Below are positions 29,296 to 36,401 of a stretch of 64,000 bases of DNA, in pieces (the stretch's first letter is position 1; every line of letters starts with the position of its first letter). The translations under genes were made by a program, and so were the position numbers. The notes under the pieces were generated by a model. That model worked only from the letters and a program-made list of their open reading frames with translations, was not told the origin of the DNA and ran no database searches. This DNA is from Acidobacteriota bacterium (GTDB taxonomy: Bacteria > Acidobacteriota > UBA6911): assembly GCA_963664705.1 (NCBI GenBank), contig OY761556.1:4224001-4288000 (forward strand), given 5' to 3'.

Positions 29296-30438
29296 TCACT
29301 TGTCTTCCTTCGGTCCGTCCCCGGCAGACTGGATACGGGAGCTGTGTTTCATGATGACGGCGAATAATTCGTCTACCAACTCCAGCGGCAGGCCCAGTGA
29401 TTTTCCCCATTCCTGACGAGGAGCCATCATGCGCCTTTCACGATCGGGGTCCACGACAGGTGTCGACTGGTTCATTTTGATCTTCCCGATCTTCCGCACA
29501 ACTTCAATGCGGTGACCCAGGGCCGAGAGTATCTGCTTATCATAGCGATCAACCATACTGCGCAGATCATGTTTGCGCGGCCGATTCAGGCTGTCCGGCA
29601 TCATTTTGCGCCGATGCCGTCCTGCCTGTTCCCAGGCAAGCGCCATTTCTCCACCAGACATTGCACCATTCAATTGCAGAAGCGTCCGGCCGAAACGATC
29701 AACTGCCTGCCTGATCGCTTCCTGGTTGGTGTCGAGGATTCCCTTCCACATGGAGTAATCTGATGCCGCCAGTCGTGTCATGTCGAGAAACCCTCTGCCG
29801 GCGATTTTATCCAGCATGCCATGCTCGGCATCACCCGCACGTGCAGTCTGCATCAGGGCGACCGAGATGAGCTGGGGAAGATGACTGACCATCGCCATGA
29901 TACGGTCGTGCTCTTCCGGATCCAGGGTGATGGGGATTGCCAGGAGGCTCTCAACTAGACCGATCAGGGTAATCAGCGCATCGGGTGGCGTATCCGGATA
30001 GGGACAGATCGCATAAACGCGATCGCTGAACAGAAGCGGGTCTGCGGCCTCCACGCCGGAACGCTCCGATCCCGCAACAGGATGCCCTCCGATAAAGTGC
30101 ACCCCGGGAGGGAGCAGCCCGCATGCACTTGCCATGATTGCTTTCTTGGTACTCCCCACATCAGTAACAATGGTGCCTTCGCGCAGGAATGGACGGAGCT
30201 GTTCAATCACGCCCAAAACAGACTGTACAGGAGTTGCCACAACAACGATGGAGCTTTCGGGTATATGGGCAGAAAAATCATCCATGGACCCAACCTGATC
30301 CGTCACCCCCGCCTCCCGTATAGCCGGAATGCGCTCAGGCAGATCAAGGCAGGCGATCGAATAATCCGGCCGCCTTCTTTTCAAAGCCAGCGCCAGAGAT
30401 CCTCCGATTAAGCCGCACCCGATAATCGTGATTTTCAT
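29296..30438 (-). CDS. tyrA: Prephenate dehydrogenase with C-terminal chorismate mutase (AroQ) domain
   Basis: GCGLIGGS, TDVGSTK, GGHPVAGSE, EEHD..SHLP, DMTRLA; C-terminal LRSMVDRYDKQIL..R..K..DPDRE. Confidence 0.88.
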   Translation of the reverse strand: MKITIIGCGLIGGSLALALKRRRPDYSIACLDLPERIPAIREAGVTDQVGSMDDFSAHIPESSIVVVATPVQSVLGVIEQLRPFLREGTIVTDVGSTKKAIMASACGLLPPGVHFIGGHPVAGSERSGVEAADPLLFSDRVYAICPYPDTPPDALITLIGLVESLLAIPITLDPEEHDRIMAMVSHLPQLISVALMQTARAGDAEHGMLDKIAGRGFLDMTRLAASDYSMWKGILDTNQEAIRQAVDRFGRTLLQLNGAMSGGEMALAWEQAGRHRRKMMPDSLNRPRKHDLRSMVDRYDKQILSALGHRIEVVRKIGKIKMNQSTPVVDPDRERRMMAPRQEWGKSLGLPLELVDELFAVIMKHSSRIQSAGDGPKEDK

Positions 30439-30453
30439 TTCAAATCTCTCCGT

Positions 30454-31482
30454 TTATTTTGCCTTGCCAAGCCGCCGGCCAAGAGTTGTGGCAATAATGC
30501 GGCATCGATTCATCAAGAGTCCGAATTCCTCGAAGGTCAAAGATTGCGGCCCATCGGACAGAGCCTTGTCGGGGTTAGGATGGATTTCCACCATGATACC
30601 ATCGGCGCCCGCGGCCACAGCTGCCCTGGCCATGGCGGCGACGAATCGACGGGTTCCCACGCCATGGCTTGGATCCGCAATAATCGGCAAATGCGAGAGG
30701 TGCTTCACGACGGGAATCGCTGATAGATCCAGCGTGTTTCGTGTGGCGGTCTCAAATGTGCGAATGCCTCTTTCGCACAAAATGACATCCGGGTTCCCTT
30801 CTGTCAGGATGTATTCAGCGCTCATCAGCAATTCCTGGATAGTTGCAGACAAACCCCGCTTCAGGAGAACCGGTTTGCCCGCATGCCCGAGGGCCGTCAG
30901 CAGCGGATAATTCTGCATATTGCGGGCACCGACCTGAAGGAGATCCGCATACTGCGCAACGGTATCAATCATTTCGATTGTCATGACTTCCGTAACCACC
31001 GCCAGTCCATGCCGGTCCGCCGCTTTCCGCAGAAGTTTCAGTCCTTCAAGCCCAAGTCCCTGGTAGGAATATGGGGATGACCGCGGCTTGAAAGCGCCTC
31101 CTCTTAATATCTGCGCTCCGCTTGCCGCCACCATCTCCGCACTGGCTTCAATTTGCTCCTCCGTTTCCACAGCACAGGGCCCGGCCATCACGGCCACCTC
31201 CATCCCGCCCACCAGGACATTTTCGCCGACACGGACTACCGTGTTTTCAGGGTGAAACTCATGGCTTGCGAGCTTATAGGGCGTGGAAACCAGGACTACA
31301 TCGCGAACTCCCGGCATTAGGGAAAAGGACCCGATGTCGAGTCGATTGCGATCACCCACCACACCCAGGATCGTGTGTTCTGTACCATCGGACCGATGCA
31401 CGAGCAGGCCGGCGTCCTTAATTTTCTGCTCCACAGCCTGGATCTGCGCCTCTGTGGCCTTTGCCTCACATACGACGATCAT
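30454..31482 (-). CDS. aroF: DAHP synthase type I-beta with N-terminal ACT-like regulatory domain
   Basis: [48 protein letters not shown] 31482 after GGAG. Confidence 0.92.
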
Positions 31483-31495
31483 AAAAATTCTCCCC

Positions 31496-31598
31496 AAAAA
31501 TACGAACGGCCCACCGGTTTCCCTGGTGAGCCGTTCTTTCTCTTCTGTTCTGAATGCGACGAAGAAAGGAAAAGACGAGGCCCTCAGGGGTCGGTCTT
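31496..31598 (-). promoter_or_regulatory. Transcription attenuator (pause, antiterminator and terminator hairpins) of aroF-tyrA
   Basis: Terminator stem GAACGGCUCACC/GGUGGGCCGUUC (31536-31504) followed by GUAUUUUU; hairpin over the leader stop (31598-31572); complementary pyrimidine and purine tracts between them. Confidence 0.75.
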
Positions 31599-31637
31599 AT
31601 ATGAGCGGTAATAGTAAAGAGAATAGCAAATGCTCAT
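31584..31637 (-). CDS. Tyrosine-rich leader peptide (17 aa, [17 protein letters not shown])
   Basis: ATG AGC ATT TGC TAT TCT CTT TAC TAT TAC CGC TCA TAT AAG ACC GAC CCC TGA, preceded by GAAGGAAG; 5 Tyr codons including YYY; lies upstream of aroF-tyrA. Confidence 0.8.
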
Positions 31638-31802
31638 TTCATCTTCCTTCAGCGTTATATAGTACCAGAAATCAGCGTCCGCTGTTAGCAGTTAGTATGG
31701 AGTCGGTCTATCCTGACATCTGCCCGGCAATTCTCCCCTGGAAACAACACCTCGTCTATCGCACTGTATTCCAAGGAATTCAGACTAAGGAGGATGTGAT
31801 GT

Positions 31803-32198
31803 ATGGCCACATGGGGACTTGTCGAATACCGCGATGCCTCACCCGAGGTGCGCGCAATCTATGATGACATTATGGCGACGCGGAAAGTGGACTGGATCAA
31901 CAATTTCTGGAAAGCTCTCGCCCACGATCCTGCCACGTTAAAGCGGACGTGGCAAAGCATCAAGGAAATCATGGCACCGGGCAGACTGGATCCGCTGGTG
32001 AAGGAAATGTTGTATCTCGCGGTCAGCGCCACAAACCAGTGCGGGTACTGCATTGCATCGCACACGGCCGCCGCAAGAAAGGCAGGAATGACGGAGGAAA
32101 TGTTTGCCGAACTCATGGCGGTTGTCGGGATGGCAAATGAAACGAATCGCCTCGCCAGCGGATACCAGGTGGAAATCGATCCTCGGTTTAAAACCTAA
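31803..32198 (+). CDS. Carboxymuconolactone decarboxylase / AhpD family protein
   Basis: KEMLYLAVSATNQCGYCIASH (CxxC..H); AGGAGG RBS. Confidence 0.85.
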   Translation: MATWGLVEYRDASPEVRAIYDDIMATRKVDWINNFWKALAHDPATLKRTWQSIKEIMAPGRLDPLVKEMLYLAVSATNQCGYCIASHTAAARKAGMTEEMFAELMAVVGMANETNRLASGYQVEIDPRFKT

Positions 32199-32946: not shown

Positions 32947-33003
32947 CTATTCGAGGCAGTTGCCCTAGGGACCGTTGACTGCCAATCCAAAAGGAGTGTG
33001 TGG

Positions 33004-34719
33004 ATGAAAGCATATGCTGCCGCGACATTGGCTATTCTCTGTGCGCTGGCGCTGTCCTTTTCTGCAGCAGCAACGGCACCGGCTTCCAACCTCATTGTGC
33101 AGGTGCTCCGGGATGAATTGAACCGGGCCATGGCAGTTCTGCGCACGCAAAGCGACCCTGCCTACTTTCTATCCTATGAAGTGACGGATCTCAGCGGCAC
33201 GAACATCGATGCCAATCTCGGTGCACTGCGTTCCAGCCGGACCAGCCATGCCCGCTACCTCGATATCGAAGTTCGGATCGGAGACTATGGATTCGACAAC
33301 ACTCACCAGATCCGTGGGGCTCGCGGCGGCAGTTCTGCCCCTGCCTACTCGGATCCGGTTATCATGCCGATCGAGGATGACGTCTACGCTCTGAAAAGCG
33401 TGATTTGGCTGGAGACCGATCGCAGATACAAGGCGGCTGTCGAGCGTTGGATCCAGGTAAAGGCCAATCGTGCGATCAAAGTGGAAGAGGACAACATTTC
33501 GTCCGATTTATCCCTGGAGAATGCCCAGACAGCCTCGCTTCCATTGGCCAGCGTTCCTGTCAATTCAGGCGACTGGGAAAACAGGGCGAGAAAATACTCC
33601 TCGCTCTTCGCCCAATACCCCGAATTGCTCGAGGGCTCCGTGTCGTTCACTTCCACCGCCACCAACAAATACCTTGTGAATAGCGAAGGCACGTCGATTC
33701 AATACGGGAAACCGTCATTTCGACTGGGTATCTATGGGAGAACCAAGGCCGAAGATGGTATGGAGTTATATCGATTCGAGGCCTTTGATGCGCTGTCCGT
33801 ATCGGGAATGCCTGAAGACGCCGTTGTCTACAATGCGGTCGAGCGCATCGCCAAAGATCTAAAAGCACTTCGCTCGGCTCCCATGATCGAACCCTACACC
33901 GGACCGGCAATTTTATCAGGCCGCGCGGCCGGCGTTTTCTTCCACGAAATCTTTGGTCATCGGATTGAAGGACAGCGGCAAAAGAACGATGATGAAGGCC
34001 AGACCTTCAGCAGGCAAATCAACAAGCCCGTGCTTCCCGAATTCCTTTCCGTTATCGACGACCCGACCTCAAGACAATCCGTCGGGATCGATCTGAACGG
34101 TTATTATCCCTTTGACGACGAGGGAGTCGCCGCCCACGCGGTCCCGATCGTGGAAAACGGCATCCTGAAAAACTTCCTGATGTCGCGCCTTCCCCTTCCC
34201 GGATTTGCTCAATCCAATGGCCATGGACGCAAAGCCCCCGGATACCGGCCGGCCGGCCGCCAGGGCAATCTCATGGTCGTGGCATCCCGGTCGGTTTCGA
34301 ATGCACGCCTGCGTGAAATGCTGATTGAAGAGGTCAAGAAACAGGGCAAACCATTCGGGCTGTTCTTCGACGACATCTCCGGCGGATTCACTACAACGAG
34401 CCGCTCCAGCCCCCAGGCATTCCAGGTAACTCCTATTATGGTTTACCGTATATATGCGGATGGCCGCCCGGACGAGCTGGTCCGTGGCGTGGACCTGATT
34501 GGTACGCCTTTGACTTCTTTCAGCAAGATCGTGGCGGCGGGAGACCGACAGGAAGTTTTCAACGGCTTCTGTGGAGCCGAATCCGGATCGGTCCCGGTAT
34601 CAGCCGTCGCCCCCGCGATTCTGACCACGCAGATCGAGGTTCAGAAAAAGCCGAAATCGGCAGAACGCCTGCCCATCCTGCCGCCGCCTCCGGCAACACC
34701 AGAGGGAGGACGGCCATGA
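33004..34719 (+). CDS. TldD-like metalloprotease with signal peptide
   Basis: FHEIFGHRIEG (HExxxH), FDDEGV, SNGHGR, GFCGAESG; N-terminal signal peptide. Confidence 0.82.
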   Translation: MKAYAAATLAILCALALSFSAAATAPASNLIVQVLRDELNRAMAVLRTQSDPAYFLSYEVTDLSGTNIDANLGALRSSRTSHARYLDIEVRIGDYGFDNTHQIRGARGGSSAPAYSDPVIMPIEDDVYALKSVIWLETDRRYKAAVERWIQVKANRAIKVEEDNISSDLSLENAQTASLPLASVPVNSGDWENRARKYSSLFAQYPELLEGSVSFTSTATNKYLVNSEGTSIQYGKPSFRLGIYGRTKAEDGMELYRFEAFDALSVSGMPEDAVVYNAVERIAKDLKALRSAPMIEPYTGPAILSGRAAGVFFHEIFGHRIEGQRQKNDDEGQTFSRQINKPVLPEFLSVIDDPTSRQSVGIDLNGYYPFDDEGVAAHAVPIVENGILKNFLMSRLPLPGFAQSNGHGRKAPGYRPAGRQGNLMVVASRSVSNARLREMLIEEVKKQGKPFGLFFDDISGGFTTTSRSSPQAFQVTPIMVYRIYADGRPDELVRGVDLIGTPLTSFSKIVAAGDRQEVFNGFCGAESGSVPVSAVAPAILTTQIEVQKKPKSAERLPILPPPPATPEGGRP

Positions 34720-36401
34720 AGACACTGATCCGATTCGCGCAATCCATATTTGGCCTGCTTTTCCTGTGTCTCGCACTGGCTCCTGTCGCTTCTGGACAGA
34801 ATCAGTCGCCCCGTGGGGATGCAGTCATGAACGCAATGAGCGACGAGCTCAGCCGCTCCATGGCTGAACTCCAGTTGAAGGATTTGGGGAAGCCCTATTT
34901 TGTGCAATACACCGTGATGGACGAAGAAGAGTATGCCGGGCAGGCCACGTTTGGAGCATTGACATCCTGGGAGTGCGTACGGCAGCGCGTAATGCAGGCG
35001 CAGGTTCGGGTGGGCTCTTATCAGCTCGACAGTTCGGACTTCCTATCGAGCCGCGGCGAATCCTCCGGGACACAGTTGGTCCAGACCGCGGTGGACAATG
35101 ACTATCGGGAACTCCGACATTCATTGTGGCTGGCAACGGATGCCGCCTACAAACAGTCTGCGGAGATGCTGGCACGCAAACGAGCCTTTCTGCAAAACAA
35201 GGTTCAGGAGGACCAGACCCCGGATTTCTCAAAGGAAAAAGCGCTTCAGTCGATAAAGGCTCGGCAGAATCTCAAGTTCAACACCGCTGAAATGCAGGAG
35301 CGCTTGAGAGATTGGTCCCGCCTGTTCCAGCTGTATCCCGAAATACAGAAATCGCGAGTGGGCATGATTTTGCGTCTTACTCATCGATATCTTGTGAATA
35401 GCGAAGGGACGCATGTCCTGCAGCCTTCCCTGCTGCTTATCGTTGAAATTGAGGCGAGTGCGCAGGCTGCCGACGGCATGCAGATCACACAATCGATCCC
35501 ATTCTACGCCCGAAGTTTCAATGCACTTCCCTCAGCCAAAAAAATCGAGTCTTCCATTGAGGAAATGGCTGAGCAGATGAAGCAGCTTCGTGCGGCCCCT
35601 CTCTTGAAGGAGGATTACTCCGGTCCGGTACTCTTGACCGGGACCGCATCCCCCGATTTTTTTGCCCGTGTCCTGGCTTCAAATCTCACCGGTCAGCGGG
35701 GCCCGATGACGGACCGGATGCAGCAGGCCGCACGCACGAGCGATCTTCTGGATCGTATGAATAGGCCCATTTTGCCGGTATATATCTCTGTTTACGATGA
35801 CCCCGCCATGGACCGTTTTGGCAATGAGCCTCTGATCGGAAGCTATGACATCGATGATCAGGGAGTTCCCGCACAACGTGTTTCACTCGTCGAATCGGGA
35901 ATTCTCACTGATTTTCTGATGGCTCGCCGACCCATTCCCGGCCATCTGCAATCCAACGGGCATGGCCGGTCCGGCTTCCCCGGCCGGGAGACGGCGACCA
36001 TCAGCAACCTGATCCTGACCGCGGAAAAGGGGAAGAGCTATTCGGACCTCAAACAGGAACTGATTCGGTTATGCAGGGAGGAAAGACTATCCTATGGCAT
36101 CGTGATCAAGGCTCTCGGCCCCGTATCAAACGGGCTTTTTCCATTTCTCGTCTATAGGGTCAATGTTGCGGATGGTTCGGAAGAGCTGATTCGCGGCGTG
36201 AATCCGGCCGGCTTTGCGGTTCGGTCGCTGCGTCACATTCAGGCCGCCGGAGATACCATTGTAGTGGCGAATCGTCTGATGGGTACGCCGGGAGCGGAAA
36301 CTCCTGTCAGCGTCGCGGCTCCCGCGGTATTACTTGAGGAAATGGAACTGAAGCGATTCACCGGCGCCCAGCAGCGTCCTTCAATTCTGTCCAGGCCCTA
36401 A
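34716..36401 (+). CDS. TldE/PmbA-like non-catalytic partner with signal peptide
   Basis: Paralog of the upstream gene (DDQGV, SNGHGR) lacking HExxxH; ATGA overlap. Confidence 0.78.
   Translation: MKTLIRFAQSIFGLLFLCLALAPVASGQNQSPRGDAVMNAMSDELSRSMAELQLKDLGKPYFVQYTVMDEEEYAGQATFGALTSWECVRQRVMQAQVRVGSYQLDSSDFLSSRGESSGTQLVQTAVDNDYRELRHSLWLATDAAYKQSAEMLARKRAFLQNKVQEDQTPDFSKEKALQSIKARQNLKFNTAEMQERLRDWSRLFQLYPEIQKSRVGMILRLTHRYLVNSEGTHVLQPSLLLIVEIEASAQAADGMQITQSIPFYARSFNALPSAKKIESSIEEMAEQMKQLRAAPLLKEDYSGPVLLTGTASPDFFARVLASNLTGQRGPMTDRMQQAARTSDLLDRMNRPILPVYISVYDDPAMDRFGNEPLIGSYDIDDQGVPAQRVSLVESGILTDFLMARRPIPGHLQSNGHGRSGFPGRETATISNLILTAEKGKSYSDLKQELIRLCREERLSYGIVIKALGPVSNGLFPFLVYRVNVADGSEELIRGVNPAGFAVRSLRHIQAAGDTIVVANRLMGTPGAETPVSVAAPAVLLEEMELKRFTGAQQRPSILSRP

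What the first reader, a model, noticed from the sequence alone, without database searches (positions are those of the whole stretch)
31496..31670. Tyrosine-sensing ribosome-mediated attenuator upstream of aroF-tyrA
Seen: an unannotated 17-codon ORF (31637-31584, [17 protein letters not shown]) with 5 Tyr codons including YYY, and a purine-rich RBS. It is followed by a hairpin over its stop (AAGA-C-CGA-C-CCC-UGA-GGG-CC-UCG-UCUU), a pyrimidine tract (31577-31561) roughly complementary to a purine tract (31545-31531) that overlaps the terminator's 5' arm, and a 12-bp terminator with a U-run ending about 14 nt before the aroF ATG. Established: this is the layout of the trp, his, pheA, thr and leu attenuators, whereas tyrosine genes are classically controlled by TyrR or T-boxes. 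Inference: stalling on Tyr codons masks strand 1 and allows antitermination into the genes for the Tyr branch. I know of no characterised Tyr leader-peptide attenuator, but novelty needs a literature check.
Basis: partly seen in the sequence, partly recalled or inferred. Interest (0 to 1): 0.9.

Follow-up and report, generated by a model that had tools for sequence, protein, structure and literature searches.

The report
Tyrosine-codon leader attenuator of aroF-tyrA
A conserved mini-gene packed with tyrosine codons, followed by competing RNA hairpins, sits in front of the tyrosine-making genes of a group of uncultured Acidobacteriota and likely switches them on when charged tyrosine-tRNA runs short: the textbook trp-operon mechanism applied to an amino acid for which I found proposals but no tested example.

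Summary
The 17-codon ORF (31637-31584, five Tyr, no Phe), its ribosome-binding site and the hairpins are there, ahead of a DAHP synthase and a prephenate dehydrogenase-chorismate mutase fusion. The leader is conserved in 35 of 137 genomes of the class (three genera, one family). Tyr sits 10 and 9 codons before a Pro-stop in 32 of 35 leaders each, with TAT/TAC swapping. A Tyr-blind metagenome search gave 28 aroF leaders, all Tyr-rich.

One correction: the conserved stall site is too far upstream to mask the hairpin over the stop. Folding predicts a long antiterminator that includes the Pro-stop codons and the GGGCC behind them. It forms in 31-34 of 35 leaders with the ribosome on the Tyr run, in 0 of 35 with it at the stop, but also in 23 of 35 with no ribosome.

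Weak points: poor U-tract, no covariation support for the antiterminator core, no expression data. Closest published cases: C. glutamicum aroR (Phe-Tyr-Phe, Phe-responsive only), Acholeplasma uORFC-13-1, and an untested tyr-tRNA attenuator label for aroF. This scan noted Tyr leaders before (99 notes, at least 97 genomes). New variant of a known kind; interest 0.5.

The parts
31659..31667 (-). Extended -10-like promoter box (TG-n-TACTAT); predicted start of the leader RNA near 31652
   Evidence: Sequence; a loose extended -10 pattern lies 28-33 nt before the leader start in 27 of 35 leaders (no shuffle control). The sigma-70 scan found no full promoter.
31643..31650 (-). Ribosome-binding site of the leader ORF (GAAGGAAG); predicted to pair with the pyrimidine tract when no ribosome is bound
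   Evidence: A purine-backed start codon lies in the Tyr frame in 34 of 35 leaders, against 4 and 3 in the other frames; folds; duplex means.
31584..31637 (-). Leader ORF, 17 codons, [21 protein letters not shown]
   Evidence: 16-21 codons in 35 leaders, all ending in Pro then a stop (TGA 32, TAA 2, TAG 1).
31608..31616 (-). Control codons Tyr8-Tyr9-Tyr10 (10, 9 and 8 codons before the stop)
   Evidence: Tyr at -10 in 32 of 35 and at -9 in 32 of 35; TAT 16 and TAC 16 at -9; Tyr at -9 in 20 of 20 and at -10 in 17 of 20 new metagenome leaders.
31587..31598 (-). Strand 1 (last four codons); forms the small hairpin over the stop with strand 2; its CCC also joins the antiterminator
   Evidence: Folds; the two inner C-G pairs hold in 35 of 35 but never vary.
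31572..31583 (-). Strand 2 (GGGCCUCGUCUU), right behind the stop; pairs with strand 1 or with strand 3
   Evidence: 2:3 duplex mean -12.3 kcal/mol against -8.2 for shuffles, below the 5% level in 15 of 35.
31537..31575 (-). Pyrimidine tract, spacer and purine tract: inner helix that brings strand 2 next to strand 3
   Evidence: Mean pairing probability about 0.85 in nascent RNA with a ribosome on the ORF; no better than shuffles or cross-leader pairs as an isolated duplex.
31504..31536 (-). Terminator-like hairpin 3:4 (12 bp plus a 2-bp cap); the CAGGG at the top of its 5' side is predicted to pair with CCCUG (Pro codon and stop) in the antiterminator
   Evidence: Core pairs hold in 34-35 of 35; an A-U/G-C swap at one position (16/9); own arms pair better than arms of other leaders in 27 of 35; mean -24.0 kcal/mol.
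31496..31503 (-). U-tail (GUAUUUUU), weak for an intrinsic terminator
   Evidence: 4-6 T in the 8 nt after GGGCCG in 32 of 35 leaders.
30454..31482 (-). aroF: DAHP synthase type I-beta with N-terminal ferredoxin-like domain
   Evidence: NF006421 E 6.7e-146, above cut-off; PF00793 and PF18152.
29296..30438 (-). tyrA: prephenate dehydrogenase fused to a C-terminal chorismate mutase
   Evidence: PF02153, PF20463, PF01817; prephenate dehydrogenase models match below their equivalog cut-offs.
31803..32198 (+). Divergent AhpD/CMD-family gene; shows that the hairpin cannot be the terminator of an upstream gene on the minus strand

Best explanation
The leader carries a conserved Tyr-codon mini-gene and mutually exclusive RNA helices, and it likely works as a ribosome-coupled transcription attenuator that lets RNA polymerase into aroF-tyrA when Tyr-tRNA is scarce.

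Shown: the ORF, the Tyr codons 10 and 9 codons before a Pro-stop, their conservation, the hairpin and the downstream tyrosine-branch genes.

Predicted by folding: (1) With little Tyr-tRNA the ribosome stalls on the Tyr run. It covers the ribosome-binding site and start region, which frees the pyrimidine tract, and it leaves the Pro-stop stretch uncovered. CCCUG-A-GGGCC and the pyrimidine tract then pair with the purine tract, the terminator's 5' arm and the start of its loop before strand 4 leaves the polymerase, so the terminator cannot form. (2) With enough Tyr-tRNA the ribosome reaches the Pro-stop and covers strands 1 and 2, hairpin 3:4 forms, and transcription likely ends near 31496-31503.

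Inferred: the Pro-stop (Asp-Pro in 21 of 35) slows peptide release and holds the ribosome on strand 2 long enough. With no translation, helices 1:2 and RBS:pyrimidine tract form first and termination is the default; this step is kinetic and only partly supported.
For: Conservation: 19 of 21 same-genus aroF loci carry the leader directly; one is cut by a contig end and one by an intron, with its leader on another contig. An RNA model finds it in 35 of 137 class genomes, once each except one with two, and once in the own genome.

Coding signature: Tyr 32 of 35 at both -10 and -9, first codon base invariant, third base free between T and C; three different stop codons; purine-backed start in this frame in 34 of 35 against 4 and 3.

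Independent test: a metagenome pattern without Tyr codons or aroF gave 76 hits. All 28 with aroF directly downstream have at least 2 Tyr in codons -12 to -7; 47 of the other 48 do not, and the last is cut 30 nt after the match.

Folding: with RNA exposed to 13 nt past the start of strand 3, the antiterminator dominates in 32, 31 and 34 of 35 leaders for A-sites -10, -9 and -8, and in 0 of 35 at Pro or stop; 17, 16 and 0 of 20 held-out leaders. The stop codon's U can pair with the terminator loop in 34 of 35 (U-A 20, U-G 14) and 20 of 20.

Output looks transcriptional: the hairpin never includes the aroF start site and lies 20-96 nt from the ATG in the 19 leaders measured. A group II intron is inserted just behind it in G016; IIC introns typically sit behind terminators (abstract of PMC1702495).

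Genome context: Trp-, Leu-, Ile- and Cys-rich leaders before trpE, leuA, citramalate synthase and a sulfhydrylase-like gene; no T-box, no TyrR match.
Against: No expression, 3'-end or ribosome data.

The U-tail is weak: 4 T of 8 in 15 of 35 leaders, commonest tail TTCGCATT, while the trp, Ile and Cys leaders of this genome have long T-runs.

Covariation does not support helices 1:2, 2:3 or the pyrimidine:purine helix: own partners beat partners from other leaders in only 15, 17 and 13 of 35. RNAalifold kept only 12 pairs, 1 with a two-sided change.

The folding result depends on the assumed RNA end. At +10 the antiterminator wins in only 19-21 of 35 with the ribosome on the Tyr run; at +13 it also wins without a ribosome in 23 of 35, and in the own leader at P = 0.92. 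On full-length RNA the terminator wins at every ribosome position (mean P 0.89 or more), so the switch must be kinetic.

C. glutamicum aroR has a Tyr codon yet is reported not to respond to Tyr (review PMC11802643). The 35 leaders are kin and not independent.
Confidence: 0.76

Rival explanations
1. The same Tyr-codon switch, but the output is not intrinsic termination: hairpin 3:4 acts as a pause for factor-assisted (Rho, NusA/NusG) termination, or the fold controls aroF translation or mRNA stability.
For: Weak U-tail in most leaders. The pyrimidine tract can pair with the aroF start region (mean -6.7 against -4.0 kcal/mol for shuffles, below 5% in 11 of 35). The aroF ribosome-binding site follows the tail at once in most leaders.
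Against: The hairpin never includes the aroF site. In 5 of the 19 leaders measured it lies 43-96 nt upstream of the ATG, and four of these five have T-rich tails. That pairing is no better for own partners than for those of other leaders (18 of 35). Intron insertion behind the hairpin.
Confidence: 0.1
2. The nascent peptide senses free tyrosine, TnaC-like: Tyr residues in the exit tunnel plus the C-terminal Pro arrest the ribosome at the stop when Tyr is high, masking strand 2 and forcing termination.
For: All 35 peptides end in Pro-stop, 21 in Asp-Pro-stop, against 188 and 6 of 3508 long ORFs of the genome (ORFs called mechanically). The Tyr pair keeps a fixed distance to the C-terminus while the N-terminus varies. 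Pro-stop and Asp-Pro slow release, and TnaC arrests at Pro-stop (review PMC3985003, passages).
Against: The CC of the Pro codon is also needed for two RNA helices, so its conservation has an RNA explanation. The metagenome pattern fixed CCC and cannot test it. Residues between the Tyr run and the Pro vary widely. Tandem end-product codons are the mark of tRNA sensing (established knowledge).
Confidence: 0.06
3. The signal is phenylalanine, mixed aromatic supply or general translation speed rather than tyrosine.
For: Phe is present in 23 of 35 leaders and replaces Tyr at -5 in 9 and at -10 in 2 (5 of 28 metagenome hits at -10); Cys is also common. aroR of C. glutamicum answers to Phe only. Leaders in other lineages are mixed Phe/Tyr.
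Against: The own leader has no Phe codon; 12 of 35 have none and all have at least 2 Tyr. In codons -14 to -7 of 55 leaders Tyr is 205 of 440, Phe 39, Cys 34. The operon holds the Tyr-branch enzyme; the Phe branch is a separate fusion gene without such a leader.
Confidence: 0.06
4. No regulation: a chance ORF over a conserved constitutive hairpin, or the terminator of a neighbouring gene.
For: Whole-leader folding z-score is only -2.05. In several relatives a pheA fusion lies directly upstream on the same strand.
Against: The upstream gene here is divergent. Codon-level conservation and the Tyr-blind test.
Confidence: 0.02

Closest known systems
Classical leader-peptide attenuators of enteric bacteria (trpL, pheL, hisL, thrL, leuL, ilvL)
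   Same: Short uORF with tandem end-product codons, hairpin over the ORF end, competing antiterminator and terminator ahead of the biosynthetic operon (mechanism as described in PMC11802643 and PMC2659441, passages).
   Different: Control codons are Tyr; no Rfam leader family matches; the stalled ribosome is predicted to leave strand 1 free and the antiterminator to include the Pro-stop codons; weak U-tail; host is Acidobacteriota.
aroR-aroF attenuator of Corynebacterium glutamicum (Neshat et al. 2014, as cited in PMC11802643; leader first noted in PMC4046766)
   Same: uORF with a Tyr codon ahead of a DAHP synthase gene; experimentally supported attenuation.
   Different: Phe-Tyr-Phe motif, responds to Phe and reportedly not to Tyr; here runs of Tyr, often without Phe, and tyrA is in the operon. 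The primary paper was not read.
uORFC-13-1 motif of Acholeplasma (Brewer et al. 2021, PMC8632094)
   Same: uORF and terminator always upstream of aroF; attenuation proposed from comparative data (passage).
   Different: Read by its authors as Phe-sensing; other phylum; I did not compare the RNAs (figure not held, supplements not opened). An earlier scan note (e1-9840183) says it is Tyr-rich; I did not test that.
Proposed tyr-tRNA attenuator of aroF-tyrA (Camakaris et al. 1980 for E. coli, cited; Table 3 of Xu et al. 2009, PMC2659441, for Shewanella aroF; Table 7 of Song et al. 2005, PMC1173090, e.g. Thermus aroA-Ibeta > tyrA)
   Same: The idea of attenuation of aroF-tyrA by Tyr-tRNA, and predicted attenuators before the same gene pair.
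   Different: The passages I saw name no Tyr-codon leader peptide and report no test; other lineages.
Tyr T-boxes and TyrR
   Same: Same end product sensed.
   Different: Neither found in this genome, which is 98% complete; no Rfam T-box match in the leader.

Membership tests
Classical ribosome-mediated amino-acid attenuator | Short translatable uORF with its own ribosome-binding site in the operon leader | tested here: met
   (34 of 35 in frame against 4 and 3). Translation itself not shown.
Classical ribosome-mediated amino-acid attenuator | Tandem control codons for the end product of the downstream pathway | tested here: met
   Tyr 32 of 35 at -10 and at -9; downstream DAHP synthase and prephenate dehydrogenase-chorismate mutase.
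Classical ribosome-mediated amino-acid attenuator | Mutually exclusive antiterminator and terminator sharing strand 3, chosen by ribosome position | tested here: met
   In silico only: 31-34 of 35 with the ribosome on the Tyr run, 0 of 35 at the stop; sensitive to the assumed RNA end; no covariation support.
Classical ribosome-mediated amino-acid attenuator | Intrinsic terminator: G+C hairpin followed by a U-tract | tested here: inconclusive
   Hairpin strong (mean -24.0 kcal/mol) and covarying; U-tract weak, 4-6 T of 8 in 32 of 35.
Classical ribosome-mediated amino-acid attenuator | trp-type geometry (not universal in the family): the stalled ribosome covers strand 1 of the 1:2 hairpin | tested here: not met
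   With footprints of 12-15 nt from the P-site, a ribosome at -10 or -9 leaves codons -5 to -1 free; only Tyr13 (Tyr in 15 of 35) would cover them. Footprint sizes are recalled values. This lowers 'trp-type layout', not 'works by attenuation'.
Classical ribosome-mediated amino-acid attenuator | Amino-acid-dependent premature termination in vivo | not testable with these tools
   No RNA data at hand.
Rfam amino-acid leader families (Trp, Phe, His, Leu, Thr leaders) | Match to the covariance model | tested here: not met
   Only two weak ctRNA_pGA1 matches (E 0.12 and 0.95) on the hairpin.
T-box riboswitch (RF00230) | Match to the T-box model | tested here: not met
   None in the leader or the genome (the control search rang in 5 of 14 reference genomes).
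TnaC-type arrest peptide | Pro-stop C-terminus with conserved tunnel residues and arrest caused by the free amino acid | tested here: inconclusive
   Pro-stop in 35 of 35, but explained equally by RNA pairing; arrest not testable here.
uORFC-13-1 / aroR | Sequence or structure homology to those leaders | not tested

The most novel reading that the evidence does not exclude
The element is a tyrosine-specific attenuator with a hybrid design. The conserved Tyr pair and the invariant (Asp/Gly)-Pro-stop make the peptide itself part of the sensor: starvation stalls the ribosome on Tyr codons and opens the operon, while a programmed, possibly Tyr-stimulated, dwell at the Pro-stop clamps the antiterminator strand and makes up for a weak terminator. 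That would join tRNA-sensing attenuation and TnaC-like nascent-chain control in one 17-codon leader.
Probability: 0.1. Interest if true: 0.75.

Novelty: new variant of a known kind. Interest (0 to 1): 0.5.

Why it matters
Classical attenuation is established for Trp, Phe, His, Leu, Ile/Val and Thr; tyrosine genes are usually described under TyrR or T-boxes, and the one tested aroF leader with a Tyr codon reportedly ignores tyrosine. A Phe-free, Tyr-run leader ahead of a self-contained tyrosine branch is a clean case to test whether Tyr-tRNA can drive attenuation, a proposal cited back to 1980 for E. coli. It also shows that this Acidobacteriota lineage likely runs several amino-acid operons (Trp, Leu, Ile, Cys, Tyr) by leader peptides, and it offers a roughly 160-nt part for a Tyr-tRNA reporter. 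The mechanism is textbook and such leaders seem widespread, so the gain is a filled gap and a testable geometry, not a new principle.

Tried and rejected
Rfam scan of the leader: no family. T-box and TyrR searches of the genome: none.

RNA runs: no RNA holder listed; no reads were laid.

RNAalifold on the MAFFT alignment recovered only the 3-bp hairpin and 9 terminator pairs, so helices were counted from anchors in scripts instead. Cross-leader controls gave no covariation signal for 1:2, 2:3 or the pyrimidine:purine helix, and a modest one for start:codons -8 to -4 (26 of 35) and RBS:pyrimidine tract (25 of 35).

A Phe leader before the CM-prephenate dehydratase-DAHP synthase fusion (window 40446-38443) was sought and not found, here or in the 7 other loci whose alignment reached the fusion's start (one of them had only 30 nt upstream). 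No leader before hisG, thrC or the third DAHP synthase; for ilvB only the 520 nt before the gene, mostly ilvN, were read, so its operon leader is unchecked.

The first family pattern also hit chance sites: of 16 hits fetched, 7 were leaders and 9 were not. The genome-wide uORF-plus-terminator scan gave 14 candidates but missed the trp, Leu and Ile leaders, so it is not a census. The aroF test returned zero through a wrong BLAST option and was redone.

Five family members with an unfused tyrA and seven of eight class-level aroF loci showed no Tyr leader in up to 1.5 kb upstream (one of the seven had only 431 nt). The Phycisphaerales locus with the same fused tyrA has none either. A sequence look-up of earlier scan notes found no look-alike of this leader.

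Full report
OBSERVATION. On the minus strand, 31637-31584 reads [21 protein letters not shown] with five Tyr and no Phe codons, behind GAAGGAAG at 31650-31643 and a TG-n-TACTAT box at 31667-31659. The minimum-energy fold of 31700-31480 shows the hairpin over the stop, a pyrimidine:purine helix and a 12-bp hairpin with a 2-bp cap (z = -2.05, 6 of 200 shuffles as stable). The tail is GUAUUUUU and ends 13 nt before the ATG at 31482. The downstream genes are a type I-beta DAHP synthase with a ferredoxin-like domain and a prephenate dehydrogenase fused to a chorismate mutase. The gene upstream is divergent, so the hairpin is not the end of an upstream transcript here. Of the genome's ATG-started ORFs of 8-35 codons, only this one has at least 4 Tyr, 25% Tyr and a YY; 13 pass at 20%. 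Rfam has no match.

DISTRIBUTION. A search of 41 genomes with AroF gave 21 same-genus orthologue loci including the own one. Nineteen carry the leader; one starts inside aroF at a contig end; one has a group II intron end in front of aroF, with its leader on another contig. Family-wide searches added more, giving 35 distinct leaders from 34 genomes. A covariance model built from 19 of them finds the element in 35 of 137 genomes of the class, all in three genera of one family (25 of 29, 8 of 9 and 1 of 1, plus the own genome), once each except one genome with two. The unpublished genome G034 counts only in these denominators. Named homologues of the fused TyrA are Acidobacteriota records, one labelled Terriglobia. 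Family members with an unfused tyrA lack the element.

CODING SIGNATURE. The 35 ORFs are 16-21 codons long and all end in Pro and a stop (TGA 32, TAA 2, TAG 1). Tyr occupies codon -10 in 32 and codon -9 in 32; at -9 TAT and TAC occur 16 times each. Every peptide has 2-7 Tyr; 12 have no Phe. A purine-backed start lies in this frame in 34 of 35, against 4 and 3 in the other frames. The script required two Tyr, and the loci are kin, so I made a blind test: a metagenome scan with a pattern covering only the Pro-stop, the pyrimidine tract and strand 3. Of 76 hits, 28 have aroF directly downstream and all 28 have at least two Tyr in codons -12 to -7; 47 of the other 48 do not, and the remaining one is cut 30 nt after the match. 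Twenty of the 24 distinct aroF leaders are new; Tyr is at -9 in 20 of 20 and at -10 in 17 of 20.

RNA SWITCH. The GGG right behind the stop resembles the terminator's 3' arm, so it can pair with strand 1 or with the terminator's 5' arm. I folded each leader with the part under a ribosome held unpaired (footprints of 9-15 nt from the P-site are recalled values). On full-length RNA the terminator wins at every position (mean P 0.89 or more), as expected for a kinetic switch. On nascent RNA ending 10 nt into strand 3, the antiterminator dominates in 19-21 of 35 with the ribosome on the Tyr run, 10 of 35 with no ribosome and 0 of 35 at Pro or stop. With three more bases exposed the figures are 31-34, 23 and 0 of 35, and 16-17, 8 and 0 of 20 for the new leaders. 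The gain comes from CCCUG (Pro codon and stop) pairing with CAGGG at the top of the terminator hairpin; the U of the stop can pair there in 34 of 35 (U-A 20, U-G 14) and 20 of 20. So the conserved stall site lies far enough upstream to leave the Pro-stop stretch free, and what the stalled ribosome covers is the ribosome-binding site and start region, which otherwise pair with the pyrimidine tract and with codons -8 to -4.

RESULTS AGAINST. In the own leader the antiterminator reaches P = 0.92 even without a ribosome once the RNA is 13 nt into strand 3, so default termination without translation is not shown. Own strands pair no better than strands of other leaders for 1:2 (15 of 35), 2:3 (17 of 35) and the pyrimidine:purine helix (13 of 35); only the terminator (27 of 35), the start helix (26 of 35) and the RBS helix (25 of 35) lean the right way. 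The U-tail is weak (4 T of 8 in 15 of 35), unlike the trp, Ile and Cys leaders of the same genome. For a transcriptional output speak the variable hairpin-to-ATG distance (20-96 nt in 19 leaders) and the intron inserted just behind the hairpin in G016. IIC introns typically sit behind terminators (start of the abstract of PMC1702495); my assignment of this intron to IIC rests on recalled end motifs.

GENOME CONTEXT. No T-box and no TyrR match in a genome 98% complete. It has a WCWW leader with a strong terminator before trpE, an ILLL-ending leader before leuA, an Ile-rich leader with terminator before citramalate synthase and a CCC leader before a sulfhydrylase-like gene (the last gene named from its sequence start, not scanned). 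The Phe branch is a separate CM-prephenate dehydratase-DAHP synthase fusion at window 40446-38443 without a Phe leader. This fits Tyr as the signal for aroF-tyrA.

OTHER LINEAGES. Among 80 tyrA loci from named genomes, Tyr- or Tyr/Phe-rich uORFs followed by hairpin and T-run precede aroF or CM-aroF in a KSB1 record (L110), three Spirochaetota (L114, L126, L129) and two unassigned bacteria (L096, L108) (read by eye, no control). A different-family class member has an FYYFF leader (L027). Their RNAs do not resemble this one. Earlier notes of this scan report Tyr leaders before aroF-tyrA in 99 findings from at least 97 genomes; these are unchecked AI notes and are not counted as evidence. None is a sequence look-alike of this leader.

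LITERATURE. Eight searches of the held library bear on novelty; none returned a tested Tyr-responsive leader-peptide attenuator. Passages read: PMC11802643 (aroR of C. glutamicum, Phe-Tyr-Phe, Phe-responsive, Tyr without effect), PMC4046766 (same leader), PMC8632094 (uORFC-13-1 before aroF in Acholeplasma, read as Phe), PMC2659441 (table entry 'attenuator sensing tyr-tRNA' for Shewanella aroF, citing Camakaris 1980), PMC1173090 (predicted attenuators before tyrA operons, including Thermus aroA-Ibeta > tyrA), PMC3985003 (Pro-stop and Asp-Pro slow release). Neshat 2014 and Camakaris 1980 are known to me only through these citations. No supplements were opened; that of Brewer 2021 may list Tyr-rich leaders. 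Subscription-journal surveys of attenuators are outside the library and may already predict Tyr leaders.

VERDICT. A real, conserved regulatory element; most likely a Tyr-tRNA-sensing transcription attenuator (0.76). It works like trpL/pheL/hisL attenuation, belongs to no Rfam leader family, and differs in amino acid, host and predicted geometry. New variant of a known kind; interest 0.5.

Noticed in passing
G000:C1:630383-630472 (+), L149: Trp leader (WCWW, ending Pro-stop) with a strong terminator before trpE.
   Followed up: partly
G000:C1:6084745-6084671 (-), L154: Ile-rich 24-codon leader with terminator before citramalate synthase (cimA), a less usual attenuator target.
   Followed up: partly
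G000:C1:1280090-1280152 (+), L153: Leader ending in ILLL before leuA, with a hairpin but no clear U-tract; possibly a non-terminator type of attenuation.
   Followed up: partly
G000:C1:5000005-4999898 (-): 35-codon uORF with CCC, ending Pro-stop, plus hairpin and T-run before an O-acetylhomoserine sulfhydrylase-like gene (name from the sequence start only): candidate Cys-sensing attenuator; conservation not checked.
   Followed up: no
window 40446-38443 (-): Three-domain fusion chorismate mutase-prephenate dehydratase-DAHP synthase; directly upstream of the Tyr leader in several relatives, 7 kb away here; short 5' region with a conserved TGTGGGACAAT box and no Phe leader.
   Followed up: partly
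L031 and L012 (G016): Group II intron (RF02001, RF00029) inserted in the U-tail between the attenuator hairpin and the aroF ribosome-binding site.
   Followed up: partly
L110, L114, L126, L129, L096, L108, L027: Unrelated Tyr- or Tyr/Phe-rich uORFs with hairpin and T-run before aroF or CM-aroF-tyrA in KSB1, Spirochaetota, unassigned bacteria and another family of the class.
   Followed up: partly
L083: A Phycisphaerales record has the same aroF (72% identity) and fused tyrA (52%) but no Tyr leader: the operon may have moved without its attenuator or lost it.
   Followed up: no
window 31642-31634 (-): An out-of-frame ATG-AAA-TGA overlaps the leader start; too close to the ribosome-binding site to be a likely start.
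   Followed up: no
window 32998-36401 (+): Tandem TldD/PmbA-like metalloprotease genes with signal-peptide-like N-termini.
   Followed up: no
G017 (L009, L034): Two copies of the leader-aroF unit on different contigs; duplication or a mixed bin.
   Followed up: no
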